Positions 14,484 to 63,106 are shown, counted from the stretch's first letter. The stretch: 64,000 nucleotides of DNA from an uncultured Candidatus Saccharibacteria bacterium (GCA_964590315.1 CAZPVS010000002.1:2693-66692); one strand, 5' to 3'. Made by a program: numbers and translations. The notes: a model not told the origin generated them from the sequence alone.

Positions 14484-14507
14484 ATTTTCAAGGAAAGATT
14501 GAGGTGA

Positions 14508-14613: not shown

Positions 14614-14632
14614 CATACAAAGAACAAAGAGA

Positions 14633-14659
14633 GTCTACATAAATATTTATTATGTAGAC
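14633..14659. terminator. Perfect 10-bp stem-loop, probable bidirectional terminator
   Basis: GTCTACATAA-atattta-TTATGTAGAC. The minus-strand side is followed by a T-rich tract (TCTCTTTGTTCTTTG) downstream of the 14821-15597 gene. Confidence 0.45.
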
Positions 14660-14820
14660 TGTTGGACGGTGAGTATCTTCCAGTGAGGTTTTCGCTCCAT
14701 GAATTCCCTGCCACCGCGGACGGCCGCAAGCATGTCTGTATGAACCGCGTCCAAAATAGATTCTTGCGTTTCGGTCGCACGGCCGTTTATATGATCGATC
14801 ACTGCCCTGGATGTTAGAAA

Positions 14821-21346: not shown

Positions 21347-21434
21347 TGGCGGAGGGAGAGGGATTCGAACCCTCGAGGGCTTGCACCCAACACGCTTTCC
21401 AAGCGTGCGCCATAGGCCACTAGGCGACCCCTCC
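21347..21434 (-). tRNA. tRNA-Ser (anticodon GGA), CCA encoded
   Basis: Reverse complement GGAGGGGTCGCCTAGTGGCCTATGGCGCACGCTTGGAAAGCGTGTTGGGTGCAAGCCCTCGAGGGTTCGAATCCCTCTCCCTCCGCCA. Anticodon loop TTGGAAA, long variable arm, T arm GAGGG-TTCGAAT-CCCTC. Confidence 0.92.
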
Positions 21435-29689: not shown

Positions 29690-31210
29690 TTAGAAAACGC
29701 GGACTCCTTTCGATTGGAGGAAGCGGATAGGTTCGAGCGAACCTTTACCCCCTGCTCCGCTTCCTTGAACACACAAGCTGATGTCGGTACACACCGTAAA
29801 GTGCAGGTGAGCACCCGTGGAGTAGCCGGTGGAACCGACGCTCCCAAGGGGCTTGCCAGCACTGACAGTGCTACCCTTGCTGATGCCATCAGCAAACGCG
29901 CTCATGTGAGCGTACAGCGTTGCAACGTTACCGTGATCGATGATCACGTAGTTGCCCCAGGCACTGCTGTACTCTGCTCGCTCGATTCTGCCACCGGCTG
30001 CGGCATATATCGGGGTACCAGCAGAGGTGCTCATGTCGGTGCCGTTGTGAAAGCCAGGTGCTCCCGTTACTGGATGGAAACGGAAGCCATAGCTGTCGCT
30101 GAGTCGGTAGCTGAAGTTTTTGAGGGGGGCTTGCCAGGCACCCGTGTACTCTCCGCCACCTGCTTGACTGATGCGTAGGCCGCCCATGAAACCCTGGTTG
30201 TAGTACATGGACTGCACGAGCACATCAGACTTACTGTTCGCCGCATTCAGGAGCTGGTCGTTGCCGAGGTACATCCCGACGTGGTAGATCCCGCTCTGAG
30301 TGCCATCGCTGGACCAGAAGACAAGATCACCGCGCTGGAGCTCCTCCCGGCTGACGTGACTGGTGGTGATACCAGCCTCCCGGTCCCCCGTGTATCCCCA
30401 CTGCTCACGAGAGGTTCGTGGCAACGTGAGACCCGCCTTATCGAACGCCCAGAGCAGGAGTCCCGAGCAGTCGAAACCACCCGGCTCAGTGCCTCCCCAG
30501 ACATAAGGCGTGCCGACGCGTGACTTGGCGAACTCAATGGCTCGTTCCACGATGTCCGACGAACCCTCGCTGCTCACGCAACTCATGTCCGCGGTGATCG
30601 TCTGGGAGGGGCCGCCTGTGTTGGTGAAGTTCAGGCGTCGGGCAATGGCTGCCGCCTCGTCCAGATGAGGGTCATACGCCTCCGGGTGGCCAGAACGCTG
30701 TACTGCCTGCGCCACGTCTCCGTAACCCCGTGTCTGCCAACCTGGTACGGTCAGCATAACGTCGAGGAACTTATTCGTGGCGTAGGTTACGTCCTGCACC
30801 TGTGCGTCCGTACCCCACCCTTGGCTTGGCCGTTGCTGCAACCAGCCCTTGCTATCCCGGTCACCGTAGTCCAGATTTCGAAGTGTCGACTCCTGGATGC
30901 CCGTGATGAGCAAGATGACCAGAACGCGGTACAAGGGTGTGTCCCCGAAATCACCACGGCGGGCATGCACGACTGCGGCAGCCTGACGGACGACTTTCAT
31001 CTGATCCGCCTGGATAACCGCGTCTTTGACTGTTAGGACGCCGGAGCCGACTGAGACGCTCTCCGGGTCGGAGGACACCAGAAGACTGTCGTCAGTCTGG
31101 TCTCCGCACAGCACTTCTGGGGGCGGCGTACTGAACATCATGAGGCCCATGACGAGTGCGAATGGCACGATCAGCACGAGCGACATGATTCCTACTACGG
31201 AACGTCTCAC
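29690..31210 (-). CDS. Secreted multidomain cell-wall hydrolase: unassigned N-domain + NlpC/P60 + M23 peptidase
   Basis: 506 aa with an N-terminal TM/signal. NlpC/P60: GTPYVWGGTEPGGFDCSGLLLWAF...IYHVGMYLG. M23: FHNGTDMSTSAGTPIYAAAGG...GNYVIIDHG...STGYSTGAHLHFTV. Confidence 0.8.
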   Translation of the reverse strand: MRRSVVGIMSLVLIVPFALVMGLMMFSTPPPEVLCGDQTDDSLLVSSDPESVSVGSGVLTVKDAVIQADQMKVVRQAAAVVHARRGDFGDTPLYRVLVILLITGIQESTLRNLDYGDRDSKGWLQQRPSQGWGTDAQVQDVTYATNKFLDVMLTVPGWQTRGYGDVAQAVQRSGHPEAYDPHLDEAAAIARRLNFTNTGGPSQTITADMSCVSSEGSSDIVERAIEFAKSRVGTPYVWGGTEPGGFDCSGLLLWAFDKAGLTLPRTSREQWGYTGDREAGITTSHVSREELQRGDLVFWSSDGTQSGIYHVGMYLGNDQLLNAANSKSDVLVQSMYYNQGFMGGLRISQAGGGEYTGAWQAPLKNFSYRLSDSYGFRFHPVTGAPGFHNGTDMSTSAGTPIYAAAGGRIERAEYSSAWGNYVIIDHGNVATLYAHMSAFADGISKGSTVSAGKPLGSVGSTGYSTGAHLHFTVCTDISLCVQGSGAGGKGSLEPIRFLQSKGVRVF

Positions 31211-31225
31211 GAGAAATCACCTCCT

Positions 31226-31789
31226 TCAGGGTCTCGTGACCTCGTATACGAACCAGTTACCAGCTTCCCGGACCCACACCATCTCGTAGACGGAGCGGTA
31301 AGCTGCCTCACTGGATCCGTCAGGGTAGGACTTGGTCAGCGTGAGGGTTATGGAGCCCTCGGCAGTTTCTGGATCGATTAGTTCCCCCTCGAACCCGTCT
31401 GCTACCTCGGCGCTCCAACTCGCTTCCTCTTGTATGACCTCTGTATCCAGCTCGGGGTCGAACCCAAACTGGCCGGTCTGCAGAAAGTGGTCCGTAGCGA
31501 ACCGGGCTACCTCTGCCATCGCTTCTTCAGCGCTCTCCGCGGTGTCCCGCGAGAAGTACGCTTCAGAGAACGCTTCAGCCCGAAGCTCAAGAGTGTTCTT
31601 GGACTTGGACAGCTCCTCAGGATCCCTCTCCGCACGCGCGGGACTGTTGCTAGCTCCCGCGCGTGCGGTCTCAGAGGGTGAGGCCGGGTCGTCCGAAGGA
31701 CTGCTCTCGGGCCAGAACCACAGGACGACAGCCGTCACGACGAGGAACGCCGTGATCAACGTCCATAGTCGCTTAGGCCACCGCCTCAT
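31226..31789 (-). CDS. Membrane-anchored acidic hypothetical protein of the T4SS cluster
   Basis: 187 aa. N-terminal TM (LWTLITAFLVVTAVVLWFW). Overlaps the upstream ATPase stop by 17 nt. Confidence 0.6.
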   Translation of the reverse strand: MRRWPKRLWTLITAFLVVTAVVLWFWPESSPSDDPASPSETARAGASNSPARAERDPEELSKSKNTLELRAEAFSEAYFSRDTAESAEEAMAEVARFATDHFLQTGQFGFDPELDTEVIQEEASWSAEVADGFEGELIDPETAEGSITLTLTKSYPDGSSEAAYRSVYEMVWVREAGNWFVYEVTRP

Positions 31790-33296
31790 CAGGCTTCACC
31801 TGACCTTTCTGGTATTCCTGCTCAGCGCGCTTGGCACGCGCCCGAACATCGTCCAAGGTGTAGGCGTTGACACGCTCTCGCATGCGTCGAACCACACTGT
31901 TGGTGTCGATGTCCTGCAGGATGGAGGGGGGAATGATGTTCTGCAGCCACAGGACCGGTTGTTCGCCGATCTTGAGCGCGTAACAGCCCTGCTGGAGCCC
32001 CGTCGTCAGGAACGCGTCCTCGTCGGACAACCTGACGGTGTTCACCAGGTAATCCAGTACGTCGGGGTCGTAGGGCTGCCGGAACATCGCTCGGAGGGTC
32101 ACGCCCATGTTGATCGACTTGGCGAGCTGCCGGATTTCGGAATCCGGGTGGCCCACCAGGTTGAGCTGTCGACCGAACTGGGTCAAACCGATGTCGACCA
32201 TGTGGAAGGCCCGGGATTTCCTCGACAGGTTGTCCAGCGCTCGCAGGTAGGCGGCGCTTTCGAAGTCTGCCTGGATTTCCTCAGACACCCGCAGGTGCGG
32301 CACGAGGTCGATCCGGTTGTGAACGAGTGCGAAGGTGAGCCACCCGTTGTAGAAGGTGTCAAACGCCTCTCTGGTCTGGGCCGACATGCGGCTCCGGTCG
32401 ATCAAGACTGCACGACCACTCAACTGCTGGTGCAGCGAGCTTCCACCACCAAAGGCGTTGTCGAACTCCTCACCGGTGAAGCGGGTCATGACCGAAGCCA
32501 TGGTCGCCGCGGCGCGAGCGAACTCGTCCTCGGGCAGGTTCGAGCTCTTGTTGCCCAGTGCCTCCAGTTCGGCGATGAACGCGAGGTCTCCCTCCACGGT
32601 GCCATTGCTGGACTGAGTGAGCATCTCGCGCGCTTGCTCCACGAGCGACGTGTGGCGCTCGGCGTAGAACTCCTCCGCGTCGGACTTGGTGAGACCGTTG
32701 AAGATGTCACCCAACAGCTCCGGCTTGGCCACCCTTCTGAACTTGTGGAACATCAGAGCGGTACCGACCAGAGCCGCCAACGCCTCGTAGCCCTGCGGCT
32801 TCCGCTTGAGGACCAGCTCGGCGATGGTACGGGTCTTGTCGACCATCGAGATGAGGTCGTTGAGCTCCGGGTCGTACGGGTTGATCTTGCGATCTCCCGC
32901 CAGCGGGTCGATGATCTCACCGCCGATTGACTCGAAGACATCCTGCATCTCGGGCCGACCACCTTCAGGCTTGCCGTCGAGGCCAAGTGTTCTCAGCCAA
33001 TGCGGCCGTCCCGTCAGGGGGTCCACACCCGCTTGCTTGCCGGCGGCCATGCGGATCCGGTACTTGACGAAGCTCGACTTGCCACTCTCACGGACACCGT
33101 CGACTCGCCACATAGTGCCGTTGATGATGCCGAGCTCTCGGAGCTCCATCTCGTCACCGCAGTACCAGCACTTGGTCTCCATGTTGAGACCCCACGGCTC
33201 CCCGGTGTCGGTCCCCGGATGCGGAGCACTGACGAAGGGCTGCCACAGAGCTGCTGTCCGTGGGGTACCCTTGAAGGTACGACTCTCCTGGGGCAT
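31773..33296 (-). CDS. VirB4/TraC-type T4SS ATPase, C-terminal (NTPase) half
   Basis: 507 aa. Walker A GVRESGKSSF, late KSRAFHMVDIGLTQ (RK...TQ-type motif), Walker-B position reads HLRVSEE. RBS GGAAAGGAG. Confidence 0.6.
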   Translation of the reverse strand: MPQESRTFKGTPRTAALWQPFVSAPHPGTDTGEPWGLNMETKCWYCGDEMELRELGIINGTMWRVDGVRESGKSSFVKYRIRMAAGKQAGVDPLTGRPHWLRTLGLDGKPEGGRPEMQDVFESIGGEIIDPLAGDRKINPYDPELNDLISMVDKTRTIAELVLKRKPQGYEALAALVGTALMFHKFRRVAKPELLGDIFNGLTKSDAEEFYAERHTSLVEQAREMLTQSSNGTVEGDLAFIAELEALGNKSSNLPEDEFARAAATMASVMTRFTGEEFDNAFGGGSSLHQQLSGRAVLIDRSRMSAQTREAFDTFYNGWLTFALVHNRIDLVPHLRVSEEIQADFESAAYLRALDNLSRKSRAFHMVDIGLTQFGRQLNLVGHPDSEIRQLAKSINMGVTLRAMFRQPYDPDVLDYLVNTVRLSDEDAFLTTGLQQGCYALKIGEQPVLWLQNIIPPSILQDIDTNSVVRRMRERVNAYTLDDVRARAKRAEQEYQKGQVKPDEAVA

Positions 33297-33516
33297 GACA
33301 CACGCTCCTTTCCGGGCGGTATCTCTATCAGATGTGTTTTCCTGTTAGGTTGTTAAGGTACGTGATGCGGTTGTCGCACCTCAGTATTACCATTAAGCGT
33401 AATAACAATACTGAAGTGTGTAACTGCCCCGGAGGATTATGAAAGCTCAGTAAAGAGCCAGCAATATCCTCCGGGGCGAGTCGCACCTCATTCGCTGGAT
33501 TTTGGTCCAGCTACGT

Positions 33517-35085
33517 TTACAACAGGGCTAGGGCGGTGGTAGAGCTCCACAAGGATGGGTACTGGTAGTCCCCGCCCTCGATGAGCTCACCGGAGAGGCC
33601 AAGGCCTTCGACAAAAGCCTCGAGGGCTTCCAGTTCGTCCTCGCAGACATCGTGTGCCGTGACCGTTCGGGTCTTGCCGTCCTCGTCGAGGAGGAGGCGA
33701 TCCGCCGTACGGACTGCAACCAAGATGCTGTAGGACTGACTGAACTGACTCGCAAACAGCGTGTCTCCTCGTTGGTTGAGGCGCTCGCTGCGAGCTGTCG
33801 ACTTCCTGGTCTCCACCAGTCCGAGCCAGTCAACGAATCCCTGAATGAAGTTGCTGCCAACTTCAATCCAGTGAACCTCCCGGTCGCTCCTGACGGCTTC
33901 GCCGACGAGTGCAACACTGGGATAGCTGACGGGCAGGTTCGCCATGAACTCCTCACGGAAAAAGCCTTGCCAGACCCGCTCAGGTGCACCCGTGATGCGG
34001 TACACCTTCGTCACGGTTCCGTCCGTGAGGCTGTCCTTGTCGGAGACGACCATCTTCTCGTCCGGCCAGTGGGACACCACGTCATTCCCGCCGTCCACGT
34101 CCGCCTTGGCGTAGTACTCCTGGATCTTGGCGATGTCCCAGGCGCCTCTGACGAACGCATGCAGGCCGGACTCGTTGAGTGGCTGCGGATTGGAAACCCC
34201 GCACGCGCGCAAGTGTTGCTGAGCGGTCGTAACGATCTTTGCCACCGGAAGTCTCCGGAGGTGCCGTTCGCTGATGAGTCCGCTCTCCTGCGCCTTGGCG
34301 AAGCTGCCTTCCCGCTTGATGGTCAGCACGGTTGCCATCCACGGCTTGCGGCCGTATTCAGGCATGATCTGCCGCATCTCCTCCCATGGCTCAGCCATGT
34401 TCAGAATCGCCCGGTCTTCGTCCGTCAGCTCGTCCTCGTTCTTGAAACGAGCTTCCGGGTGGACCAAGTCGGGATGCAACAGATACCCAAGCGCATTGTG
34501 CAGATGCGTCTCGTCAAAAGGATCTTGACGGAAGACGTACCCAACGCCCAGGCTGTAACCGCGCTGCTTGAGAGCGGCCCGCTTGACCATCGTCTCGAAG
34601 TTGCTGTAGGCACGGTCTTGACCAACGAGTGACTGCGACGGGATAGTTGAACCTCCCCCCTCAATCACCACGCTGAGACTGTTGTCCTGCAGGTTGTAGA
34701 GCACTGCCGTCTCCGGCGTGTTCCTCCCCGCTGGGACGCTCGTCACCCAGAACGGAATGACGGTCTCATTGCCCTTGGCGTCCTTCTTCTTGACGCGGAT
34801 GACCTTCTCCTCGTCGAAGACGATGCCCTTGCGGACACGAACACGGAACCAGCCGCGTAGTCCTCGAACAAAGATCCGGTACATCCGTGCGCGGTTGCGC
34901 CGTACCATCAGACCAAACCAGACAAGTGCCAGTCCAGCCTGGGGCAAACTCCCGTAGAAGTTTCCGACGATGAAGCCGATGGCGATGACCGCAATAGTCA
35001 GTTTCCAGTCGCTTCCGCTAAACCGGAAAAAGCCTACGTCGAGCCGGGACGGATGGAGCTCTTCATGAGCTTCCTGTGTGATCAT
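33517..35085 (-). CDS. VirB3/VirB4 N-terminal-like membrane protein (resembles the actinobacterial SCO6880-type family)
   Basis: 522 aa. Two N-terminal TMs (WKLTIAVIAIGFIVGNFYG, AGLALVWFGLMV), then a large soluble domain. Located immediately upstream of the ATPase half. Confidence 0.5.
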   Translation of the reverse strand: MITQEAHEELHPSRLDVGFFRFSGSDWKLTIAVIAIGFIVGNFYGSLPQAGLALVWFGLMVRRNRARMYRIFVRGLRGWFRVRVRKGIVFDEEKVIRVKKKDAKGNETVIPFWVTSVPAGRNTPETAVLYNLQDNSLSVVIEGGGSTIPSQSLVGQDRAYSNFETMVKRAALKQRGYSLGVGYVFRQDPFDETHLHNALGYLLHPDLVHPEARFKNEDELTDEDRAILNMAEPWEEMRQIMPEYGRKPWMATVLTIKREGSFAKAQESGLISERHLRRLPVAKIVTTAQQHLRACGVSNPQPLNESGLHAFVRGAWDIAKIQEYYAKADVDGGNDVVSHWPDEKMVVSDKDSLTDGTVTKVYRITGAPERVWQGFFREEFMANLPVSYPSVALVGEAVRSDREVHWIEVGSNFIQGFVDWLGLVETRKSTARSERLNQRGDTLFASQFSQSYSILVAVRTADRLLLDEDGKTRTVTAHDVCEDELEALEAFVEGLGLSGELIEGGDYQYPSLWSSTTALALL

Positions 35086-35110
35086 GGGGTTTCACCTCCT
35101 TGGTGATCGA

Positions 35111-36349
35111 TTACCGTCCCGGCTTGTGGGTGGGCGGTAGGGGTTGTGTCTTCTCACGTCCAGGTATGGAGTGAGTGACGGGCAGCTCGGGCTGCTTGGG
35201 CTCTACGGGCGTGTGGATGGGCTTCGCGGCACCATTTGTTGCCGGAGGACTAGCCTGCTTGCTCGGCGGAGACTTGGAAGCCTGCACTTTGCTCGCTACG
35301 GCTGTTCCAGCGGCTGCTGAGGTACCTCCAGTTGCGGCTACCGCCCCAACCTTCAATGCCGTGCCCGTCTTGTCCAGCACCTTCTTACGGATGCGGGACT
35401 TGCCTTCTTCCGTGAGCTTGGAAACCTGAGAGGGCTGCTTGGCGCTGACCCTGCTCTGGTTGACGTTGTTCGCGTCGACCTTGCCTCGGTTGTTGACGGT
35501 GGCGTCCACGTTACCCTTGACGCGCTGCGTGAAGGATCCTCGACCCCCCGTCATCTTGACTGTCTGACGGTAGGTGAACTTGAAGAGGCGTGACTGCAAC
35601 CACAGACCGGCAATGAAACCTGTCATGGTCATGATCACAACCCCGAGTGACGAATCACCCAGTTCGGTATCCCCCAGCATCTCTGCGATGTCAAGGCAGA
35701 GGATCATGAGCGGCCGTCCGAAAATCATCGTGACGAACGCTGCACCGATCATACCGTCGCAGAGGGCTCCGTTCTTGTCGGACAGCGGTCGAAATGCCAC
35801 TATGAGCAGCCCGCCGTACTTGACGGCGAGGTTGTACAGCTCATACGCGAACACCACGACCAGCATGCATCCGCCCAGGAACGCAGTGGGAGCAAACGCT
35901 GCGGCTACGATCAGCGGGTTGTCGCTCGCGACACCCATCGACAGCCAGCTGCGGCTCCCGCCCTCAGCGTCGTAGAAGTCGGCCTTCTCGCTCAGGATGT
36001 CGCCCACCGAGATCATCACATCGATCAGGTAGAACCAGATCGGCCATGCGGCAGTGATGAAAACCCCGATGACGATGGCATCGAAGAACTGGTAGATCCG
36101 GGATGACCGGAACATGACAATGCACGCCAGGATGATTGTCAGCAGGTAGGCGACGAAGCCTGACAAGCCGAGCACCTCACTACCGAAGTAGTCAAGTGCC
36201 GCCATGTTGTCCGCACGAGGCGGGTGCATGGCGAGCTCCTGGAAAGCACCGACGAACTCTCGGTAGGCGTCCTTGACCAAATCAGCGAACATGCTGAACG
36301 GATCTGGAAAATCGCCGGGCCAGAGGTCAATCTTTGGAGCGACGATCAT
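35111..36349 (-). CDS. VirB6/TrbL-like polytopic T4SS membrane protein with Ala/Pro/Lys-rich tail
   Basis: 412 aa with at least 6 hydrophobic helices, then a low-complexity C-terminus (AATGGTSAAAGTAVASKVQASKSPPSKQASPP). Confidence 0.5.
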   Translation of the reverse strand: MIVAPKIDLWPGDFPDPFSMFADLVKDAYREFVGAFQELAMHPPRADNMAALDYFGSEVLGLSGFVAYLLTIILACIVMFRSSRIYQFFDAIVIGVFITAAWPIWFYLIDVMISVGDILSEKADFYDAEGGSRSWLSMGVASDNPLIVAAAFAPTAFLGGCMLVVVFAYELYNLAVKYGGLLIVAFRPLSDKNGALCDGMIGAAFVTMIFGRPLMILCLDIAEMLGDTELGDSSLGVVIMTMTGFIAGLWLQSRLFKFTYRQTVKMTGGRGSFTQRVKGNVDATVNNRGKVDANNVNQSRVSAKQPSQVSKLTEEGKSRIRKKVLDKTGTALKVGAVAATGGTSAAAGTAVASKVQASKSPPSKQASPPATNGAAKPIHTPVEPKQPELPVTHSIPGREKTQPLPPTHKPGR

Positions 36350-36416
36350 GAGAACTCCTTTTGGTCATTCCCCCGTCCAGGACTTTCTTTGCCTGGACGG
36401 GGGCGGGACGATCAGG

Positions 36417-36737
36417 TCAGCAGGGGGAGCTGACCGGGTTGATGCCGCTGTTCAGGATGATGGCGAACACCACGATCCCGATGGCTCCCCCGATCAGGTT
36501 TCCCCTGTGGTTCTTCAGGAGGACAGCACCGAGCGCGAGCGCTGCGATGATGACCACGAAGAACACCTGCCCGAGGGACAGGGACAGGCCGATGAAGTTC
36601 CCGATGGGCTGGTTGAGCTCGCCCATCAGATCCCTGGACCAACCGCATCGGGGCTCGATGTCGGCCTCGAACGGCATGGCCATGGTGATGTAGAAGTGCA
36701 GCATCTGACCCTGGACGTACGTCAGGAGCGTCGTCAT
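36417..36737 (-). CDS. Small two-TM membrane protein (pilin/VirB2-position candidate)
   Basis: 106 aa with a strong SD (AAAGGAGGTG). Two C-terminal helices (LSLSLGQVFFVVIIAALALGAVLL, IGGAIGIVVFAIILN). Chosen over the overlapping alternative-frame ORFs. Confidence 0.45.
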   Translation of the reverse strand: MTTLLTYVQGQMLHFYITMAMPFEADIEPRCGWSRDLMGELNQPIGNFIGLSLSLGQVFFVVIIAALALGAVLLKNHRGNLIGGAIGIVVFAIILNSGINPVSSPC

Positions 36738-36750
36738 GACGCACCTCCTT

Positions 36751-58282: not shown

Positions 58283-58531
58283 TCAAGTGAGTGCAATTCG
58301 TGCCAGGGATGCGATAGCTATGACGGCCCAGAATAGATTCAGTAGCACCGTCTGACGTACTTTTTTGATCAGTGATATTATTATGATCCCTATCGCTCCG
58401 GTGAGGTTAAGCAGCTGGTACAGACTGCCATCAGCTGCTATCACCTGAAAACTTACCAGAGCGTACGCCCCGACAATTGCAGTAGTCCCATACCACCCCA
58501 CTATCTCCGGGATATTTATTTTTCGTGCCAT
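58283..58531 (-). CDS. Small 3-TM membrane protein (CBU_0592-like)
   Basis: MARKINIPEIVGWYGTTAIVGAYALVSF... The start lies 6 nt after TGCTATACT. Confidence 0.5.
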   Translation of the reverse strand: MARKINIPEIVGWYGTTAIVGAYALVSFQVIAADGSLYQLLNLTGAIGIIIISLIKKVRQTVLLNLFWAVIAIASLARIALT

Positions 58532-58623
58532 ACGTAGAGTATAGCAAAGCAAAACTCTGCTTTTCTCAGGAAGATACCTGCTTGTTTTCGAATTGATTGT
58601 TAAACTCGATTTCATCCAGCGAG

Positions 58624-58971
58624 CTACTGGGGAATCAATCCAGAATCAAAACTAGCAATGATTATCTGAGCAATAATTATCGAAGCAGTATAGACCAGCA
58701 TAAATAATAAAATACCCACGGACATCTTACCTACTCTGCCGTCGTGGACCGTAGAGATAGCCCCGCGACTCTTAGCAAATCCAACAATAGAGATAATCAG
58801 AAACACCGCACTAACTGCGATCAGCGCCTTGGCCTTCAATAACTCATATTCAGGATATCTAGTATATGGTTCTGGATATGCATAAAATTTTGCGACAGCA
58901 GTAACCATTGTCATTAGAAAAACAGGTAAAGAAATAGTGCTTGCGGTAAATACTGTAAGTGGATTTTTCAT
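58624..58971 (-). CDS. Small polytopic membrane protein
   Basis: 115 aa with four hydrophobic helices. Confidence 0.5.
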   Translation of the reverse strand: MKNPLTVFTASTISLPVFLMTMVTAVAKFYAYPEPYTRYPEYELLKAKALIAVSAVFLIISIVGFAKSRGAISTVHDGRVGKMSVGILLFMLVYTASIIIAQIIIASFDSGLIPQ

Positions 58972-59239
58972 AACTTCTAGTGTAGCTCATTTACAAAATA
59001 AATAATAATACCACTTAAAATCTTCTTAATTATGAAGTTTCTGTCCCGTAAAATGTAACGAGATCATACACGACTATAGCCATGCTCGGAATGAATTTCT
59101 GTGCGTGGTTTTGCTTACCTAACCACGAGACCCTGCTCTTTCAGATCAGTCTTAGGCTACATTGACCAGAAAAACAAATAGGAATACCTCGTTGTGAAGC
59201 GTATTCTTATTTGGCCCACACTGGCTGCTGAAGTTCGAA

Positions 59240-59491
59240 CTAGTTCCGAGGGAGTGCGATACCCACCTGCTTTGCAGCAGCAAGAAGCTCTGCATTGAGA
59301 GTAAGTAATTTCTCTTCGAGAGATTTTCTGGCAAAATCTGTATCAGTAATTGTGCCTGATTGTAATTCGGTGAGCATACCGTAGATTTCCTTAATGTCTT
59401 CCCTTAAGGCTTTTAGCTCATTGAACACAGGTTCAAGTTTTGTGTCAAATATAGATGCAATTTGTTGCAAATCTTCTTGCGTTAAACTCAT
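59240..59491 (-). CDS. Small coiled-coil hypothetical protein
   Basis: 83 aa. The ATG lies 6 nt after TGTGCTAAAAT. Confidence 0.5.
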   Translation of the reverse strand: MSLTQEDLQQIASIFDTKLEPVFNELKALREDIKEIYGMLTELQSGTITDTDFARKSLEEKLLTLNAELLAAAKQVGIALPRN

Positions 59492-59589
59492 ACTTCAATT
59501 TTAGCACAGAACAGAAGCGCTCCATTCTTGCAAAGCGCCTTATTAGGCTCTCCCATCCCTGGCGATTATTGAACTAATACACAAGCAGT

Positions 59590-60453
59590 CTACTTTGCCT
59601 GCAGCCGTAACATCTCTTCTTCATACCAGTCGGGAACTTCTGCAATACCGTAATATGGGTTTTCACTCCCAGAAACATACTCAGAAAGCGGATCACCTTT
59701 TCCATAGTGCCAGATTTCTTGTGGGTTTACATACAGACCGGCTTTTTCGGTCATAGCGTAGTACAGAACTCTTCGCCCCAGAACTACTTCACTACCTTCG
59801 GGCTCTACTGGAGTTTGCTCTACTGAATTTATGATATCGCTCTGGCCTTCAATCAAGTGATAACCTTCATGAAAGTCTGGATAAGCTGTGCCCTTTACTG
59901 CCCCGCCCTTGTGGCCTCGGTCAAAAGGCTCGCCCGTTTCTAGATTAATAAGCGCAACGTCAACTGCTCCACCAGTTAAATGAGGCGTAGGTGTCGGACG
60001 ATCGCTTGGACGAGCGCAGTAGTTCGGTACTTCACTTGCAACCTCTTGGTCTGTCATTCCTTGATTCATACTCTTTATCACCATTGGCCAGGCAACCTCA
60101 AAGGCAAACTTTTGCACTTGATAAGGTCGTAGGGCGTCATCAATACGAATATGAGCGGGAGCTCCAAGATACTCACGTACCTCCCTGTCATTCCGTAGAT
60201 AATCGTCCGCAAGTACAAGCCGTCTTGCAACGTCTAGCCGTACAAGTGGCGCATCAGGGACACCCGGTAAGGTCTCTCCCGTCATTCGATTTGGCTTAGA
60301 ATAGTAGCTACTGGCATCTTCAAAACCAAATTCAGATTCTCGAGGGTCAACGAGAGGGTCGTTATGCAAAGGATGCTCAGTATCTATCTCACGCCGAATG
60401 TCGTAACCATCCTTATGCGCCCTTAACGCAGTAAAGTTCGGTACCTGATTCAT
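59590..60453 (-). CDS. M15-family metallopeptidase (VanX-type D-Ala-D-Ala dipeptidase-like)
   Basis: 287 aa. PHLTGGAVDVAL (HxxxxxxD zinc motif) and EIWHYG near the C-terminus. Confidence 0.6.
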   Translation of the reverse strand: MNQVPNFTALRAHKDGYDIRREIDTEHPLHNDPLVDPRESEFGFEDASSYYSKPNRMTGETLPGVPDAPLVRLDVARRLVLADDYLRNDREVREYLGAPAHIRIDDALRPYQVQKFAFEVAWPMVIKSMNQGMTDQEVASEVPNYCARPSDRPTPTPHLTGGAVDVALINLETGEPFDRGHKGGAVKGTAYPDFHEGYHLIEGQSDIINSVEQTPVEPEGSEVVLGRRVLYYAMTEKAGLYVNPQEIWHYGKGDPLSEYVSGSENPYYGIAEVPDWYEEEMLRLQAK

Positions 60454-60509
60454 AAAAAACAGAATACCACATAAATAGCATTTTGTAAAGTATAAGCGTC
60501 TTAGCTTCC

Positions 60510-61190
60510 CTAGCTCACGGGGTTTGCAACTCTTTGTTGGGCGGCTCGGTTAAAAACAGCAATCTGAGTATTCCGAACGAAAGTCGGACCTGTAAGCTGT
60601 TCAATGTCTACTGAATAATCTTGGTACCGGCTTGTAATGTTCAATGCCCAATCCTGAAACTCTGGTACGTCCCATTCGAAATAATGGCCGCGTGCTGCTA
60701 ACTGCTCTTCGTTGAGTCGTTTCGTAGCATCGGGAGTAGAGACAATTACGAGGTCAGGTGTAATATGATTGAAAACTCCATCCTCTATTAGCGATACTTC
60801 ATGCCGAGGGACATGCTCAATTGTCTCTAACATAACTACGGCACCAAGATGACGGAATAGCCCAGGTTTATCTACTACAGTCTCTAGGCCCGTCATTGAA
60901 CCTTCGATAAAGGTAAGCCAGTCTTCTGCACTTGCTAGGTCTGATTCAGCGGTATCTATACGTTCTTGCCACGAGTCGATACCTAAGTATCTTTCAAACC
61001 GTAGGTCGTTACTTATAATCCGTTTCACTAATGCGCCGTCGCCACATCCGAGGTCAATAACTGACTGTATACCATTTACCGTTAATGCGTTAATCACGGC
61101 GTCCATACGTAAGCCATGGTTATAGACTGCGAGTTCAGGAAAAGTTCCCGTAGTATGTAACGCTGGTAGTTCTGATATTGGAGTAGACAT
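60510..61190 (-). CDS. Standalone Hen1-like methyltransferase domain (3'-terminal RNA ribose 2'-O-methyltransferase family)
   Basis: Start at MSTPISELP. RMDAVINAL..VIDLGCGDGALV..YLGIDSW..VVMLETIEHV..VIVSTPDA..HYFEWDVPEFQDWA..YSVDI..TQIAVFNR parallels the Hen1 MTase layout (LDLGCG, EVIEH, TPN, FEWTR.EF..WA, QMAVF.R). Confidence 0.55.
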   Translation of the reverse strand: MSTPISELPALHTTGTFPELAVYNHGLRMDAVINALTVNGIQSVIDLGCGDGALVKRIISNDLRFERYLGIDSWQERIDTAESDLASAEDWLTFIEGSMTGLETVVDKPGLFRHLGAVVMLETIEHVPRHEVSLIEDGVFNHITPDLVIVSTPDATKRLNEEQLAARGHYFEWDVPEFQDWALNITSRYQDYSVDIEQLTGPTFVRNTQIAVFNRAAQQRVANPVS

Positions 61191-61431
61191 AAAAAAACAA
61201 AATACCACATCTCAGGCATTTTGTAAAACATAAGCGTTATGACTCCTGGGGCGAGATTATTGTATATAACCTGCAGCCATGCTCGATGCAGGCATCTGCG
61301 CGGGGCTTTGCTTATCGAACTCGCCTTACGGGCACCGAGTTCGATCTGGCTCAGGGGCAAAAGAAAACACCCCCAAATGGAGGTGCTTTCTATTGGCTCC
61401 CACTAATAAACGACTTCCGAACCAAGAGCCA

Positions 61432-61596
61432 CTAATTAGATCGAATTGAGTGTGCTTGGCGAGAAACTGTTTTTTGGTCGGCGTAAGCACGTTTAATAGC
61501 ACCACTAAGTACGCGAGCAGCAGCTCGTGAAGGTTTTGGTGAGGCAATGTCACTTAAGGTGACCTTAGGGCTGATAATTGATTTAATCTTCATCAT
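61432..61596 (-). CDS. Unannotated 54-aa basic ORF immediately downstream of the zeta-like kinase
   Basis: Own translation: MMKIKSIISPKVTLSDIASPKPSRAAARVLSGAIKRAYADQKTVSRQAHSIRSN. Weak RBS. Below the track cutoff. Confidence 0.3.
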   Translation of the reverse strand: MMKIKSIISPKVTLSDIASPKPSRAAARVLSGAIKRAYADQKTVSRQAHSIRSN

Positions 61597-61606
61597 ATAA
61601 GTACTC

Positions 61607-62275
61607 TCATGTTATCACATTCTCTAATTGTTCTTGTGTAAGAAATTTGGGTAACTCTGCAAAAAGATCAGGAACGTTTTCAACACGTCTACCTTCCCTA
61701 TTATTCTCATCCTTTACAATTAAACTTATTGTAACATCTTTATGCCTATTACACAATTCCCTTAAGTTTGATTCAAGTTTAAGATATGTCTGTATGAACT
61801 CATCTCTATCTATAGCGCGGTGTTCAAGTAATTCCCGGTCTTTCGTAAACTGCCACGCAACTTCTGGAAGTTGAAATATAAAATAAATTTTAACCTTGTA
61901 ACCTCTATGGAGGGCTCTTTCTAAATTCTGAATGGCACGCCCATGAGAAAAAGTACCGTCAAAGACAAAATCAATTCTCTTCTTGATGGTCTCATCGTAT
62001 ATTTTTCCTAAGATTACCCCTGCACCACCACGAAACTTATTTGCTAGTTCTGGTTTATAGTCTTCCATCAATGTGGCAATCTCGTCCATATCAATTCTTA
62101 AAGGCTTATCAGATACATCCTTAAGGAGTTCGACCGTAAATTCTGTTTTTCCAGCACCAGGTAAACCGGCCATAAATATTCCCGTAGGATACTCTTTGCT
62201 TATAAAGTCTGTCTTACGGATAAATTCGCGAGCAATTCGTTTTCTGTTCTTATTTGCCCATTCCATGTAGTCCAT
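61607..62275 (-). CDS. Zeta-toxin-family P-loop kinase
   Basis: 222 aa. GIFMAGLPGAGKTEF (Walker A) and DFVFDGTFSH. Overall layout matches PezT/zeta-like kinases. No upstream epsilon-type antitoxin ORF. Confidence 0.65.
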   Translation of the reverse strand: MDYMEWANKNRKRIAREFIRKTDFISKEYPTGIFMAGLPGAGKTEFTVELLKDVSDKPLRIDMDEIATLMEDYKPELANKFRGGAGVILGKIYDETIKKRIDFVFDGTFSHGRAIQNLERALHRGYKVKIYFIFQLPEVAWQFTKDRELLEHRAIDRDEFIQTYLKLESNLRELCNRHKDVTISLIVKDENNREGRRVENVPDLFAELPKFLTQEQLENVIT

Positions 62276-62372
62276 GGGCTAATTGTAGCAAAACAAAAAC
62301 ACTCTGCTTCTGCAAAGTGCTTATGCTCGGCTCCCCATACCGGTCACGGACCTTTAAGGATATAATGCGATT

Positions 62373-62954
62373 ATGATATCAATATACTTTGCAACTTCAA
62401 ATAAGGAAAAAATACAAATTGCTCAGACCGTATGTGCGGAAGCGAGCTTAACTGTTCAGCCAGTTTCATTAGACATTGACGAAATTCAAGGTGAAGATCC
62501 TGAGGTAATTGTACGTGATAAAGCGCAGCGGGCTTATGAGCAGCTCGGAATGCCTGTTGTGGTTAGTGATGACACGTGGGACATACCGGCACTGAAAGGC
62601 TTCCCTGGCGCTTATATGAAATCGATAAACTACTGGTTTACCCCGGATGATTTTCTAAGACTCATGGAAGGTGTTGATGACAGAAAAATCATTCTGCATC
62701 AGTATCTCGCCTACACAGATGGAAGTGTGACGGAAGTTTTTAAAAATGATATACCAGGCCAAATCATCAAAGAAGCACGTGGCGAAAGCGAAAAATCTCC
62801 AAATATGACAGTCACCGTTCTTGATTTCGACAATGGCAAAACCATTGCTGAAGTATTTGAGCAAGGCGAAGAAGCTGTAGTAGCCCGCTATAAAAACCGT
62901 CCAGATGCATGGCACGGCTTTATTGAATGGTATAAAAAATATCCAGTAGCGTGA
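62373..62954 (+). CDS. Ham1/RdgB-family non-canonical purine NTP pyrophosphatase
   Basis: IYFATSNKEKIQIA and VVSDDTWDIPALKGFPGAYMK. Confidence 0.75.
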   Translation: MISIYFATSNKEKIQIAQTVCAEASLTVQPVSLDIDEIQGEDPEVIVRDKAQRAYEQLGMPVVVSDDTWDIPALKGFPGAYMKSINYWFTPDDFLRLMEGVDDRKIILHQYLAYTDGSVTEVFKNDIPGQIIKEARGESEKSPNMTVTVLDFDNGKTIAEVFEQGEEAVVARYKNRPDAWHGFIEWYKKYPVA

Positions 62955-62988
62955 ATGCTTACTGGATACCCTGTAAAATATATGCTCT

Positions 62989-63057
62989 TGGCTCCGGAGA
63001 CTGGATTCGAACCAAGTGTTTCTACCACCTAATTATTAGGCTCGCCTTACTATAGCT
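62989..63057 (-). pseudogene. tRNA-like fragment: intact T arm + acceptor 3' strand + GCCA, degenerate 5' part
   Basis: Reverse complement ...CTTGG-TTCGAAT-CCAGT-CTCCGGA-G-CCA. Upstream is CCTAA-TAA-TTAGG (3-nt loop). No complementary 5' acceptor strand. Confidence 0.45.
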
Positions 63058-63106
63058 TACATCTGTTAATTCTCGTTATACTAACTACGGGAAGTTGCTT
63101 AAAAGT

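What the first reader, a model, noticed from the sequence alone, without database searches (positions are those of the whole stretch)
59492..63060. Cassette-like array: single genes separated by related terminator/promoter modules and tRNA-3'-end-like fragments
Seen, reading the minus strand: the spacers upstream of the M15 peptidase and the Hen1-like gene are about 80% identical over about 60 nt. They read GCTAAGACGCTTATACTTTACAAAATGCTATTTATGTGGTATTCTGTTTTTTATG and GTCATAACGCTTATGTTTTACAAAATGCCTGAGATGTGGTATTTTGTTTTTTTATG. The spacers upstream of the zeta-like gene and the 83-aa gene share a second variant: ATGGGGAGCCGAGCATAAGCACTTTGCAGAAGCAGAGTG-TTTTTG...TGCTACAAT and ATGGGAGAGCCTAATAAGGCGCTTTGCAAGAATGGAGCGC-TTCTG...TGTGCTAAAAT. 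Each of these is a hairpin, a T-tract, an extended -10 box and then an ATG 6 nt later. A third copy at 62989-63030 extends into a recognisable tRNA T arm plus acceptor plus GCCA (GGTTCGAATCCAGTCTCCGGAGCCA-AGAGCATATATTTTACA). Inference: unrelated accessory genes appear to have been assembled one by one at a tRNA-type attachment site, each bringing or copying the same junction module. This resembles a cassette-accretion mechanism, yet no integrase is present in the window.
Basis: partly seen in the sequence, partly recalled or inferred. Interest (0 to 1): 0.55.

Follow-up and report, generated by a model that had tools for sequence, protein, structure and literature searches.

The report
Gene cassettes stacked at tRNA-Asn site
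In this Saccharibacteria genome, small self-contained genes have been stacked one after another at a copy of the last 25 bases of tRNA-Asn; in related genomes the enzyme at the head of such stacks is a large serine recombinase whose own gene ends inside the tRNA, a gene-capture arrangement I could not find described.

Summary
I also found a candidate recombinase, in relatives only.

- **Attachment-site copy.** Window 62989-63013 (-) is the 3' 25 nt of tRNA-Asn(GUU), 24/25 identical to intact genes in relatives. Same-species contigs lose homology to the window at its last six bases, GAGCCA.
- **Empty and filled sites.** L027 versus L026 differ by a 672-bp single-gene insert exactly at the tRNA CCA end.
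- **Moving cassettes.** A 787-bp cassette that is 99.87% identical sits at two array positions (L001, L006) and is bounded core to core.
- **Insertion series.** L006, L003 and L001 carry 0, 1 and many cassettes at the same site.
- **Recombinase.** In relatives a large serine recombinase (LSR) gene reads antisense into tRNA-Asn. Its Trp-Leu codons TGG-CTC are the core, and 93 of 117 family members have tRNA-antisense tails.
- **Cassette ends.** The short boxes at distal cassette ends are the antisense of the recombinases' alternative tails, so they are attP arms.
- **Support inside the window.** J1, J2, J3 and two copies of a covarying hairpin (X) pass profile tests. J4-J7 are decayed.
- **Generic part.** The extended -10 followed by ATG 6-8 nt later is the genome-wide leaderless promoter layout.
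- **Missing.** No recombinase lies in the window.

Novelty: a new variant of tRNA-linked island accretion. Catalysis by the LSR is inferred, not shown.

The parts
62989..63013 (-). J1: 3' 25 nt of tRNA-Asn(GUU) (T arm, acceptor, GCCA). The core GAGCCA is 62989-62994. It acts as an attB-type arm.
   Evidence: 24/25 identical to intact tRNA-Asn in L048. Same-species contigs lose homology to the window here. Its antisense translation SWLRRLDSNQ is identical to the C-terminal tails of at least 20 LSR homologues (E 8e-7).
62929..62988 (-). Box b: AGAGCATATATTTTACA, then the hairpin CCAGTAAGCATTCACGCTACTGG, then a T-tract. This is the flank of the attachment site and also serves as a two-way terminator for Ham1.
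   Evidence: A profile from non-window loci gives E 7e-19 for 62934-62998. The same box follows J1 in the 'empty' contig L006, directly before ClpB.
62373..62954 (+). Ham1-family (dITP/XTP pyrophosphatase) gene. It is the cargo of the first cassette and lies on the opposite strand.
   Evidence: Pfam PF01725, E 1e-17. Absent next to the trio in all relatives examined.
62328..62352 (-). J2: left box ii (GGTCCGTGACCGGTATGGG) plus a decayed core GAGCCG. It is the scar of an attP P arm.
   Evidence: A box ii profile from non-window loci gives E 6e-6, the top hit in the window. Box ii is the antisense of the LSR tail WLRLQVTE... in L063.
62273..62327 (-). Box a: AGCATAAGCAC, hairpin, T-tract, TGCTACAAT, 6 nt, then the ATG of the zeta gene.
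   Evidence: Profile E 3e-10. 92% identical to L050 3232-3279, which precedes a DUF2164 gene, and 86% identical to L001 14847-14890, which precedes an AAA_33 gene.
61432..62275 (-). Zeta-toxin-family gene (61607-62275) plus a 54-aa ORF (61432-61596). Cargo of cassette 2.
   Evidence: Pfam PF06414, E 5e-29.
61394..61425 (-). J3: left box v (antisense reads WLPLINDFRTKSH*) plus an intact core GAGCCA (61394-61399).
   Evidence: A box v profile from non-window loci gives E 0.004, the top hit in the window. The antisense tail resembles LSR P0142 WLPLVDALRN.
61258..61393 (-). Terminator hairpin (box c) followed by copy X1 of the structured element X. The covarying hairpin is at 61275-61307.
   Evidence: An X profile from non-window loci hits 61270-61399 at E 2e-5. 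The fold has z = -5.05. Covariation is shown.
61240..61257 (-). J4: ATCTCGCCCCAGGAGTCA, a decayed tRNA-Asn acceptor end with decayed core GAGTCA.
   Evidence: 15/18 identical to the tRNA-Asn 3' end, about 0.26 such matches expected by chance in the window. Its position matches the fragment that follows X in L023 and L027. Weak on its own.
61192..61237 (-). Module 1, copy A: -35 TTTACA, 17-nt spacer, TGTGGTATTTT, then the ATG of the methyltransferase 8 nt later.
60510..61190 (-). SAM-dependent methyltransferase, a rare accessory gene.
   Evidence: Only 11 close homologues were found. A 71%-identical homologue is the last cassette of a clean six-junction array in L058.
60454..60499 (-). Module 1, copy B, which is the promoter of the M15 gene. 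It is preceded by GGGAAGCTAAG (60500-60510), possibly a decayed core.
   Evidence: 83% identical to copy A. The decayed-core reading is not statistically supported.
59590..60453 (-). M15/VanX-like D-Ala-D-Ala dipeptidase.
   Evidence: Pfam hit is weak. At least 173 homologues of 66-96% identity were found, with Saccharibacteria named where sources are labelled. An 87%-identical homologue lies 0.7 kb downstream of intact tRNA-Asn in L048, and an 81%-identical one lies 6.4 kb downstream of an X unit plus tRNA-Asn fragment in L050.
59489..59554 (-). J6: decayed core GAGCCT (59545-59550), a box a-like hairpin, TGCTAAAAT, 6 nt, then the ATG of the 83-aa gene.
   Evidence: Box a profile E 0.14, the second-best hit in the window.
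59240..59491 (-). 83-aa gene of unknown function (cargo).
   Evidence: Linked with the methyltransferase and M15 genes in L007 and L008.
59212..59241 (-). J7: AGTTCGAACTTCAGCAGCCAGTGTGGGCCA. The core is decayed to GGGCCA. The antisense reads WPTLAAEVRT, which resembles one LSR tail (WLRVVGEVRT).
   Evidence: The protein-level match is not significant (E 8).
59059..59211 (-). Terminator hairpin followed by copy X2 of element X. The hairpin is at 59078-59110.
   Evidence: X profile E 1.3e-6 for 59076-59121.
58283..58971 (-). Two small membrane-protein genes (115 aa and 110 aa), each with its own leaderless promoter. The second is preceded by a box a-like stretch at 58529-58567.
   Evidence: Not statistically tested.
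63107..63942 (.). The conserved trio p63 (-), HxlR regulator (+) and 80-aa protein (+) that borders the array.
   Evidence: Present in at least 16 Saccharibacteria species. In same-species contigs L002 and L004 an intact tRNA-Asn follows the 80-aa gene.

Best explanation
The 58.3-63.0 kb stretch is a tandem stack of small integrative elements, mostly reduced to one gene. They were inserted by site-specific recombination at a tRNA-Asn-type attachment site whose crossover core is the last six bases of the tRNA, GAGCCA (A72, discriminator G, CCA).

The enzyme is most likely a Saccharibacteria family of large serine recombinases (LSR, about 492 aa). Its attP lies inside the 3' end of its own gene, and the core is its Trp-Leu codons TGG-CTC. 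After integration the recombinase ORF runs antisense into the tRNA and stops at the TAA of the anticodon loop. The original tail-coding piece (the P arm, boxes ii, iii and v) is carried to the far end of the element, next to a second copy of the core.

Each element brings a terminator directly after the core, which ends transcription from the tRNA side. It also brings a leaderless promoter for its cargo. This explains the 'terminator/promoter module' at every junction.

Repeated insertion and loss of the recombinase genes leave an array of cargo genes separated by hybrid scars.

Shown:
- The tRNA-Asn fragment and the core-bounded breakpoints.
- Empty and filled sites.
- Cassette relocation and transfer between lineages.
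- Overlap of the LSR gene with tRNA-Asn in relatives.
- Identity of the left boxes with LSR tail-coding sequence.

Inferred:
- This LSR catalyses the events.
- Recombinase-less cassettes are moved in trans.
- The window's decayed junctions J4-J7 arose the same way.
For: - **J1 is a tRNA-Asn fragment.** It is 24/25 identical to intact tRNA-Asn.
- **Variable locus.** All same-species contigs diverge from the window at or within 17 nt after its GAGCCA.
- **Empty versus filled site.** L026 equals L027 plus a 672-bp His_Phos cassette inserted exactly after the CCA of intact tRNA-Asn, flanked by the 7-bp repeat GAGCCAA. The flanks are 98.7-99.8% identical.
- **Relocation.** The 787-bp DedA cassette is 99.87% identical in L001 8826-9612 and L006 2118-2904, starts and ends on TGGCTC, and has unrelated outside flanks.
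- **Transfer between lineages.** The His_Phos cassette is 96.6% identical between L001 and L026, whereas their backbone trio is 84% identical.
- **Insertion series at J1.** L006 has none, L003 has one 345-bp cassette and L001 has about 8.3 kb. Each series ends with box ii, the core, box b and ClpB.
- **Junction census.** More than 50 junctions lie on the tRNA strand, with left and right boxes reassorting around the core.
- **Clean array.** L058 has six junctions with intact cores after a truncated tRNA-Asn.
- **LSR overlaps the tRNA.** In L060, L061 and L062 the ORF overlaps the 3' 42 nt of tRNA-Asn antisense, giving the tail WLRQLGSNQRPNR*.
- **Family-wide tails.** 93 of 117 full-length homologues have W..(D/E/G)SN tails.
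- **Left boxes are LSR tails.** Box ii = WLRLQVTE (P0155, L063). Box v = WLPLVDALRN (P0142), also found at the far end of the 9-kb L060 element. Box iii = WLTTIEEVITLIKAD (P0154).
- **Recombinase remnant.** An LSR C-terminal pseudogene remnant lies inside the L001 array (E 8e-11).
- **Window junctions tested with profiles built from non-window loci.** J1 plus box b E 7e-19. Box a at J2 E 3e-10. Box ii at J2 E 6e-6. Box v at J3 E 0.004. X copies E 1e-6 and 2e-5.
Against: - No recombinase gene or remnant is in the window (and the Pfam calls). Only 2 of 7 window cores are intact.
- J4, J5, J6 and J7 are individually at or near noise. Module 1 could simply be a local promoter duplication.
- Canonical LSRs recombine only attP with attB and exchange at a 2-bp centre. 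A tandem array with internal P-core-P' junctions needs either non-canonical site choice, multimer integration or later rearrangement. None of these has been demonstrated.
- In L048 the genes after tRNA-Asn are not separated by cores, so not every gene near the tRNA is a cassette.
- Housekeeping genes (groESL) also lie between cores in L001. The sites may therefore drive general rearrangement as well as accessory-gene capture.
- All comparisons use metagenome contigs. However, chimeric assembly cannot create joins at a 6-bp repeat.
Confidence: 0.68

Rival explanations
1. The shared spacers are just the genome's ordinary promoter and terminator consensus, and the tRNA-like piece is a chance or pseudogene remnant. 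No cassette process is involved.
For: TGnTAnnnT followed 6-8 nt later by ATG precedes at least 12 other genes across the window. J4-J7 are weak individually.
Against: The 46-nt pair is the only significant repeat in the window. Boxes a, b, ii, v and X hit only this locus in the window. The locus differs in every relative. Breakpoints fall on the 6-bp core.
Confidence: 0.04
2. The array was built by tyrosine-integrase elements or prophages that target tRNA-Asn, as in tycheposon-type islands. The serine recombinase next to the tRNA in relatives is just one more passenger element.
For: Partial-tRNA repeats and tandem accretion are the hallmark of such islands. A phage-like IMG/VR contig, L053, carries a tRNA-Asn 3' part of about 42-45 nt, running from the anticodon loop to CCA, as tyrosine-integrase att sites usually do. 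A 6-7-bp identical core fits a tyrosine-recombinase overlap region better than the 2-bp centre of serine recombinases.
Against: A motif scan found no tyrosine-recombinase ORF in the roughly 0.57 Mb of loci held at that point. The cassette-end boxes match serine-recombinase tail-coding sequence. The repeat shared by junctions is only 6 bp, not the 18-45 nt usual for tyrosine-integrase att sites.
Confidence: 0.1
3. Gene shuffling occurs by natural transformation plus homologous or microhomology-mediated recombination between the conserved junction boxes. The cores are passive leftovers of old integrations and no dedicated enzyme moves cassettes today.
For: Boxes of 20-60 nt are shared between junctions and could anchor recombination. 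A 6-7-bp repeat can also mediate precise deletions, which could explain L027 versus L026. My recollection is that Saccharibacteria are naturally competent; this is background knowledge and was not checked here.
Against: The DedA cassette shares nothing but the two 6-bp cores with its two contexts, so there is no homology to anchor exchange. Left and right boxes reassort exactly at the core.
Confidence: 0.13
4. Insertion is RNA-mediated. Units that begin after one CCA and end at the next are copied by a reverse transcriptase that primes on tRNA-like 3' CCA ends, in the manner of a retroplasmid, and are then inserted at the tRNA end.
For: Boundaries coincide exactly with the mature 3' end of the tRNA. 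Cassette ends carry a small hairpin 6-14 nt before GAGCCA, which mimics a T arm plus acceptor. One array carries a reverse-transcriptase gene (L002).
Against: Cassettes contain promoters and genes on either strand. Terminators follow nearly every core, so long read-through transcripts are unlikely. The hairpin-like boxes are explained by recombinase tail-coding sequence.
Confidence: 0.02

Closest known systems
tRNA-linked genomic islands built by tandem integration (tycheposons of Prochlorococcus; bioRxiv 10.1101/2020.12.28.424599, read)
   Same: The islands sit next to a tRNA gene. Partial-tRNA repeats are scattered through them. Newly arriving elements push older ones outward. Degraded elements and cargo genes are left behind. 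The host has a streamlined genome with few other mobile elements.
   Different: Tycheposons use tyrosine recombinases and att sites of about 40 nt. Here the associated enzyme is a large serine recombinase, the shared core is 6 bp at the extreme CCA end, and units are often a single gene of 0.35-0.8 kb with no recombinase.
Integrons (IntI, attI, attC cassettes)
   Same: Arrays of co-oriented short junctions separate mostly single genes. A short conserved core (GTTRRRY there, GAGCCA here) bounds every cassette. Cassettes are found in different orders and in different genomes. A fixed head site exists (attI there, the tRNA end here).
   Different: There is no IntI tyrosine recombinase and no attC hairpin with R and L boxes. 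Each cassette carries its own promoter and terminator, and genes lie on either strand. The recombinase gene is not a fixed neighbour of the head site. The integron details are from my background knowledge.
Large serine recombinase integrative elements (phiC31, Bxb1, TnpX, CcrAB type)
   Same: The same domain set is present (Resolvase, Recombinase, Zn_ribbon_recom). Hybrid attL and attR junctions share little identity. The elements carry cargo and, in L001 and L063, a rolling-circle Rep.
   Different: As far as I know these enzymes normally target protein-coding or intergenic sites, not the 3' end of tRNAs, and do not build tandem arrays (background knowledge). Here attP lies inside the recombinase ORF, so the C-terminal 13-16 residues are swapped on integration.
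SSV1-type integrases of Fuselloviridae (attP inside the int gene, tRNA target)
   Same: The attachment site lies within the integrase's own coding sequence and the target is a tRNA gene, so integration changes the int ORF.
   Different: SSV integrases are archaeal tyrosine recombinases and the gene is split into two large parts. Here only the tail is exchanged, and the ORF stays complete by reading the tRNA antisense. The SSV details are from my background knowledge.
Cis-mobilisable elements (CIMEs) and ICE accretion in streptococci; pdif modules of Acinetobacter plasmids
   Same: These are recombinase-less modules flanked by recombination sites that depend on an enzyme encoded elsewhere.
   Different: The enzymes differ (tyrosine integrase or XerCD). 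pdif sites alternate in orientation and are 28 bp long, whereas the cores here are all co-oriented and tRNA-derived. From background knowledge.

Membership tests
Attachment scars of large-serine-recombinase integrative elements | A large serine recombinase gene belongs to the element or locus | tested here: not met
   None is in the window (Pfam). It is met in relatives: L001 19290 onward, L060-L065.
Attachment scars of large-serine-recombinase integrative elements | Hybrid junctions (attL, attR) share only a short core, with arms from different sources | tested here: met
   The 6-bp core GAGCCA has reassorting left and right boxes. The L026/L027 pair shows the filled and empty states.
Attachment scars of large-serine-recombinase integrative elements | One arm of the junction derives from the element's attP | tested here: met
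   Boxes ii, iii and v are the antisense of LSR C-terminal tail coding. Window J2 gives E 6e-6 and J3 gives E 0.004.
Attachment scars of large-serine-recombinase integrative elements | Recombination is catalysed by the serine recombinase with a 2-bp staggered cut | not testable with these tools
   Needs biochemistry or genetics.
Integron | An IntI-type tyrosine recombinase lies next to attI | tested here: not met
   No tyrosine-recombinase motif was found in the window or loci. Neighbours on the other side of tRNA-Asn vary: LexA, RNase J, a PG-binding protein.
Integron | Promoterless cassettes ending in attC hairpins with R and L boxes | tested here: not met
   Each cassette has its own extended -10 promoter. 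Junctions carry tRNA-like or LSR-tail boxes, not attC.
Tycheposon-type tRNA-linked island | Partial-tRNA repeats and tandem accretion next to a tRNA | tested here: met
   J1 in the window; three successive fragments in L002; arrays in L001 and L058.
Tycheposon-type tRNA-linked island | A tyrosine recombinase with replication genes as the mobility module | tested here: not met
   The associated enzyme is a serine recombinase, paired with Rep_ORF2-G2P in L001 and L063-L065.
Intact tRNA gene | A full cloverleaf recognised by ARAGORN or the Rfam tRNA model | tested here: not met
   No call at 62.9-63.1 kb. Only the 3' 25 nt are present.
Generic intergenic promoter/terminator consensus | Found at similar identity in front of many backbone genes | tested here: not met
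   Only the extended -10 to ATG spacing is general. The long modules are unique to this locus in the window.
Known RNA family for element X | A match to an Rfam covariance model | tested here: not met
   No Rfam hit at E of 5 or below in window 58-64 kb, or at E of 1 or below in L002, L023, L027 and L050.

The most novel reading that the evidence does not exclude
Saccharibacteria carry an undescribed gene-capture platform. A large serine recombinase family has its attP core in its own Trp-Leu codons and uses the CCA end of tRNAs (Asn, and probably Leu, Ser and Gln) as attB. It integrates elements and also mobilises, in trans, miniature single-gene satellites that keep only the two attP arms, a terminator and a promoter. 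These satellites pile up as integron-like arrays and spread between species. The covarying hairpin X that accompanies the tRNA-proximal unit would be a functional RNA or an accessory recombination site of this system.
Probability: 0.4. Interest if true: 0.82.

Novelty: new variant of a known kind. Interest (0 to 1): 0.72.

Why it matters
- **Gene flux in CPR bacteria.** Saccharibacteria and other CPR bacteria have tiny genomes and few recognised mobile elements, so how they gain and lose genes is poorly understood. A site-specific system that stacks single, self-expressed genes at tRNA ends, and shares them between lineages, would be a main route of gene flux in this phylum. The cargo seen here includes toxins, nucleotide-cleansing enzymes, cell-wall enzymes and defence systems.
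- **Recombinase biology.** The recombinases are unusual. Their attachment core is inside their own ORF, their C-terminal tail is rewritten by the tRNA antisense on integration, and they target a sequence present in every cell. This makes them attractive both as a mechanistic puzzle (how tandem arrays arise with a normally one-way enzyme) and as potential genome-engineering tools with a defined short target.
- **Practical use.** The 6-bp core and its boxes give a simple way to find flexible gene pools in CPR metagenomes.

Tried and rejected
- **tRNA and RNA-family searches.** ARAGORN and Rfam on the window gave no tRNA or known RNA at the junctions. The only hit, ctRNA_p42d at E 0.3, is a terminator hairpin. 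Element X is also absent from Rfam in four relatives.
- **J1 as a single BLAST query.** Used against the window, it puts J2, J4 and J5 among the top hits but at E of 1 or more, so it is not usable as proof. I replaced this with profiles built from non-window loci.
- **Module 1 as a decayed core plus box b.** Not supported by profile (E 14). I keep it only as a possibility.
- **Exact-protein look-ups.** Ham1 and zeta were not on record. The 121-kb NCBI contig that probably contains the window could not be fetched, so I could not read beyond 64 kb directly.
- **Tyrosine recombinase search.** A motif search across all loci found nothing.
- **Viral-contig scans.** Boxes ii and iii gave nothing. 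The tRNA-Asn end found mostly unrelated phage tRNA clusters, plus one Saccharibacteria-like phage contig with a partial tRNA-Asn but no integrase in the 10 kb held.
- **Considered and dropped.** dif/Xer-like sites (no 28-bp dif-like pattern and no alternating orientation). IS200/IS605-type or DDE transposition (no terminal inverted repeats, and an identical 'duplication' at every site). tmRNA or a permuted tRNA for J1 (no 5' acceptor strand).
- **Protein-level matches for J6 and J7.** Matches of their antisense to LSR tails are not significant.
- **Literature.** Eight successful searches found no description of such arrays or of LSR-tRNA integration in Saccharibacteria (one search failed on a query-format error). 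Subscription-only papers are outside that library.

Full report
**What is in the window**

On the minus strand, from 63.3 to 58.3 kb, lie the following genes:
- p63, a 63-aa basic protein
- Ham1, on the opposite strand
- a zeta-toxin-family gene with a 54-aa ORF
- a SAM methyltransferase
- an M15/VanX-like dipeptidase
- an 83-aa gene
- two small membrane-protein genes

. The window has 49% G+C overall and about 42% here. The organism is a member of Candidatus Saccharibacteria/Saccharimonadales: 16 species-level MAGs carry the neighbouring HxlR gene at 60-93% protein identity.

**Checking the observation**

- The spacers in front of the M15 and methyltransferase genes (60454-60499 and 61192-61237) are 83% identical over 46 nt.
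- This is the only significant direct repeat when the whole window is compared with itself (E 1.3e-5). A degenerate 36-nt pattern finds only these two places and none in 100 shuffles.
- The pieces in front of the zeta gene and the 83-aa gene both show a hairpin, a T-tract, TGCTAnAAT and an ATG 6 nt later.
- The stretch 62989-63013 (-) is a T arm, acceptor strand and GCCA. ARAGORN and Rfam call no tRNA there.
- One part of the 'module' is generic. TGnTAnnnT followed 6-8 nt later by the start codon precedes at least a dozen other genes across the window, so leaderless transcripts are the rule in this genome.

**The parent tRNA and the variable locus**

Contigs carrying an identical HxlR protein (L001-L006) have the same p63-HxlR-p80 trio but different DNA on both sides. 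In L002 and L004 an intact tRNA-Asn(GUU) lies just beyond the 80-aa gene.

The window fragment (J1) is 22/25 identical to that gene. It is 24/25 identical to the tRNA-Asn allele with a CCAGT T stem found intact in L048.

In every same-species contig, homology to the window stops at or within 17 nt after ...GGAGCCA. None of the window's cassette genes occurs within 10 kb of the trio in the 16 other species, whereas OmdA, at the far side of the array, often does.

**Elementary events**

- **Empty and filled sites.** L026 and L027 are 98.7-99.8% identical. L026 has an extra 672 bp inserted exactly after the CCA of intact tRNA-Asn, flanked by the 7-bp repeat GAGCCAA. The insert is one histidine-phosphatase gene with its own leaderless promoter and terminator.
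- **Transfer between lineages.** The same cassette is 96.6% identical in L001, whose backbone trio is only 84% identical to that of L026.
- **Relocation.** A 787-bp DedA/VTT cassette is 99.87% identical in L001 and L006. It begins and ends on TGGCTC in both, yet sits left of the trio in one and right of it in the other, with unrelated outer flanks.
- **Insertion series at J1.** L006 has J1, box b and then ClpB. L003 has one 345-bp cassette in between. L001 has about 8.3 kb in between. In each filled case the series ends with box ii, the core, box b and ClpB.
- **Breakpoint enrichment.** Roughly half of the breakpoints between related contigs have GAGCCA within 12 nt, against about 1% expected by chance.
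- **Assembly artefact excluded.** Chimeric assembly cannot make joins at a 6-bp repeat.

**The junction family**

More than 50 junctions in about 0.55 Mb of related loci share the core GAGCCA on the tRNA strand. The flanks reassort around it.

Left boxes:
- i: tRNA T arm and acceptor
- ii: GTCCGTGACCTGTAAGCG
- iii: ...GTTATAACTTCCTCTATCGTTGT
- v: GTTGCGAAGTACGTCCACTAGCGG

Right boxes:
- a: AGCATAAGCAC, hairpin, promoter
- b: AGAGCATATATTTTACA, hairpin
- c: terminator plus element X
- d and e: terminators

.

L058 shows the cleanest array. A 5'-truncated tRNA-Asn is followed by six intact cores separating NUDIX, DUF1801, two unknown genes, MarR plus DUF4383, and a 71%-identical homologue of the window's methyltransferase.

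**The recombinase**

The same-species contig L001 has a large serine recombinase (LSR) and a rolling-circle Rep 9 kb to the right of HxlR. A search with the L001 LSR sequence returned 1389 homologues at E of 1e-30 or better; where sources name them they are Saccharibacteria, and many lie on long chromosomal contigs.

In L060, L061 and L062 the LSR ORF (+) overlaps, antisense, the 3' 42 nt of an intact tRNA-Asn (-). The sequence reads TGG CTC CGG CAG CTG GGC TCG AAC CAG CGA CCT AAT CGT TAA. This translates as W L R Q L G S N Q R P N R stop. Trp-Leu is the core, and the stop codon is the TAA of the anticodon loop. Of 117 full-length family members listed, 93 end in such a W..(D/E/G)SN tail.

The remaining members have other tails, and these are the antisense of the left boxes:
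- WLRLQVTEQ... = box ii (P0155; the core lies 16 codons before the stop in L063)
- WLPLVDALRN... = box v (P0142)
- WLTTIEEVITLIKAD... = box iii (P0154)

.

In L060 a 9-kb element carries an SMC/MComp1/CTD1 set, which may be a defence system. It runs from the tRNA-Asn core, past the LSR, to box v plus a second core plus a terminator closely resembling the native tRNA-Asn terminator of L013. Its box v encodes WLTLVDDLRN, the alternative tail. L001's array holds an LSR C-terminal pseudogene remnant (E 8e-11).

The left boxes are therefore P arms of attP sites that lie inside the LSR gene. Each box-plus-core junction marks the far end of a former LSR element.

**Back to the window**

Using profiles made only from other genomes:

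| Junction | Feature tested | E-value |
|---|---|---|
| J1 | tRNA fragment plus box b | 7e-19 |
| J2 | box a | 3e-10 |
| J2 | box ii | 6e-6 |
| J3 | box v | 0.004 |
| X copy (59076-59121) | element X | 1.3e-6 |
| X copy (61270-61399) | element X | 2.1e-5 |

Each of these is the best hit of its profile in the window; for X, the two copies are the only window hits.

- The antisense of J1 reads SWLRRLDSNQ, identical to the tails of at least 20 LSRs (E 8e-7).
- J3's antisense reads WLPLINDFRTKSH*.
- J6 is borderline (E 0.14).
- J4 (15/18 to the tRNA end), J5 and J7 are not significant alone.
- Only J1 and J3 keep an intact GAGCCA.

This array is therefore an older, partly decayed stack.

The two 46-nt promoters (module 1) may be a local duplication, or a strongly diverged core plus box b. 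I cannot decide between these.

The M15 gene itself is widespread in Saccharibacteria (at least 173 homologues). It lies downstream of tRNA-Asn, or of a tRNA-Asn fragment, in two other genomes too. The methyltransferase is rare.

**How it most likely works**

1. An LSR element, as a circle, carries attP = P arm (tail-coding), core TGGCTC, P' arm (the LSR coding sequence upstream of the core).
2. It recombines with attB = tRNA 3' end, core, downstream flank.
3. The tRNA stays intact.
4. The LSR ORF is completed by the tRNA antisense.
5. On the tRNA strand, the P' arm contains a terminator-like hairpin directly after the CCA.
6. The P arm ends up at the distal junction.
7. Derivatives that lost the LSR keep both arms, a terminator and a promoter-driven cargo gene, and appear to be moved in trans.

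Steps 1-6 are read from sequence configurations. Catalysis, trans-mobilisation and the way tandem stacking escapes the usual attP x attB rule of serine integrases are inferences.

**Element X**

X is a unit of about 190 nt between two cores. In L027 it follows the intact tRNA-Asn directly. It contains a two-tier hairpin with strong covariation: 87.5% of cells are paired, 9 of 13 pairs have double changes, 0 of 500 shuffles reach the observed score, and slid controls are far lower. It is not in Rfam. Its role is unexplained.

**Comparison with known systems and novelty**

The closest analogues are:
- tRNA-linked islands built by tandem integration (tycheposons)
- integrons
- LSR integrative elements
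- SSV1-type integrases with attP inside int

This case differs by combining a serine recombinase, the extreme CCA end of tRNAs as the core, tail swapping of the recombinase ORF, and promoter-bearing single-gene mini-elements in arrays.

Eight successful literature searches found no description of this in Saccharibacteria or other CPR bacteria. I rate it a new variant of a known kind. Interest is 0.72. Confidence that the window array is an accreted stack of LSR-type attachment scars and cargo is 0.68.

Noticed in passing
window 30000-38200: This block has about 60% G+C in a 48% G+C genome. It encodes an NlpC/P60 plus M23 peptidase of 506 aa and five large ORFs (412-532 aa) with no Pfam match. 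It looks like foreign DNA, perhaps from a high-G+C host.
   Followed up: partly
window 14484-14660 (+), downstream of tRNA-Leu(CAA) at 14397-14483: About 130 nt of GC-rich sequence ends in a second tRNA-like 3' end, GGTCGAGTCCCTCCTCCGGCACCA (14590-14613), followed by a terminator hairpin. The antisense of tRNA-Leu and of tRNA-Ser (21347-21434) resembles C-terminal tails of other members of the recombinase family (WYPGQDSNLRH, WLRGRDSNPR). These tRNAs may be further attachment sites.
   Followed up: partly
window 61258-61393 and 59059-59211; L002 5290-5507 and 1481-1699; L023, L027, L050, L016: Element X is a repeated unit of about 190 nt with a strongly covarying two-tier hairpin (conserved CAG...CGAG). 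It is absent from Rfam and always lies between a core plus terminator and a tRNA-acceptor fragment plus core. Its function is unknown.
   Followed up: partly
whole window: Many genes start 6-8 nt after an extended -10 box (TGnTAnnnT) with no Shine-Dalgarno sequence, so leaderless mRNAs seem to be the norm. In related contigs the heat-shock genes groESL and clpB keep CIRCE operators and AGGAGG sites.
   Followed up: partly
window 63107-63942 and L001-L047: The p63-HxlR-80 aa trio is conserved next to these arrays in at least 16 species. The HxlR protein is 100% identical across contigs with completely different neighbours and is listed in 132 collection blocks. The trio lies between the intact tRNA-Asn and J1 in L002, so it may itself be an old cassette or a platform component.
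   Followed up: partly
L015 11200-11320: tRNA-Gln(UUG) is followed 33 nt later by an 18-nt copy of its own 3' end (ATCCCTCATCCCCAGCCA). This suggests the same process acts at another tRNA with an ...AGCCA end.
   Followed up: no
L053 7060-7102 (IMG/VR UViG_3300033074_000763): A phage-like contig (46% G+C; LysM lysin, SLT, DNA methylase) carries only the 3' 42-45 nt of the same tRNA-Asn allele, probably a phage attachment site. No integrase lies in the 10 kb available.
   Followed up: partly
L002 596-647 (-): A sub-threshold match to the MDR-NUDIX RNA motif (46.9 bits, gathering score 54.9, E 8e-6) lies beside a NUDIX cassette gene.
   Followed up: no
L001 1287-4122: The groES-groEL operon lies between two junction cores in one strain and is absent from that position in close relatives (L003, L006). 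Recombination at these cores may therefore also relocate housekeeping genes.
   Followed up: partly
window 5480-8038 (+): An 852-aa protein has a HerA/DUF87 ATPase domain, as in VirB4-like proteins. It might belong to the type IV secretion machinery reported for Patescibacteria. Not examined further.
   Followed up: no
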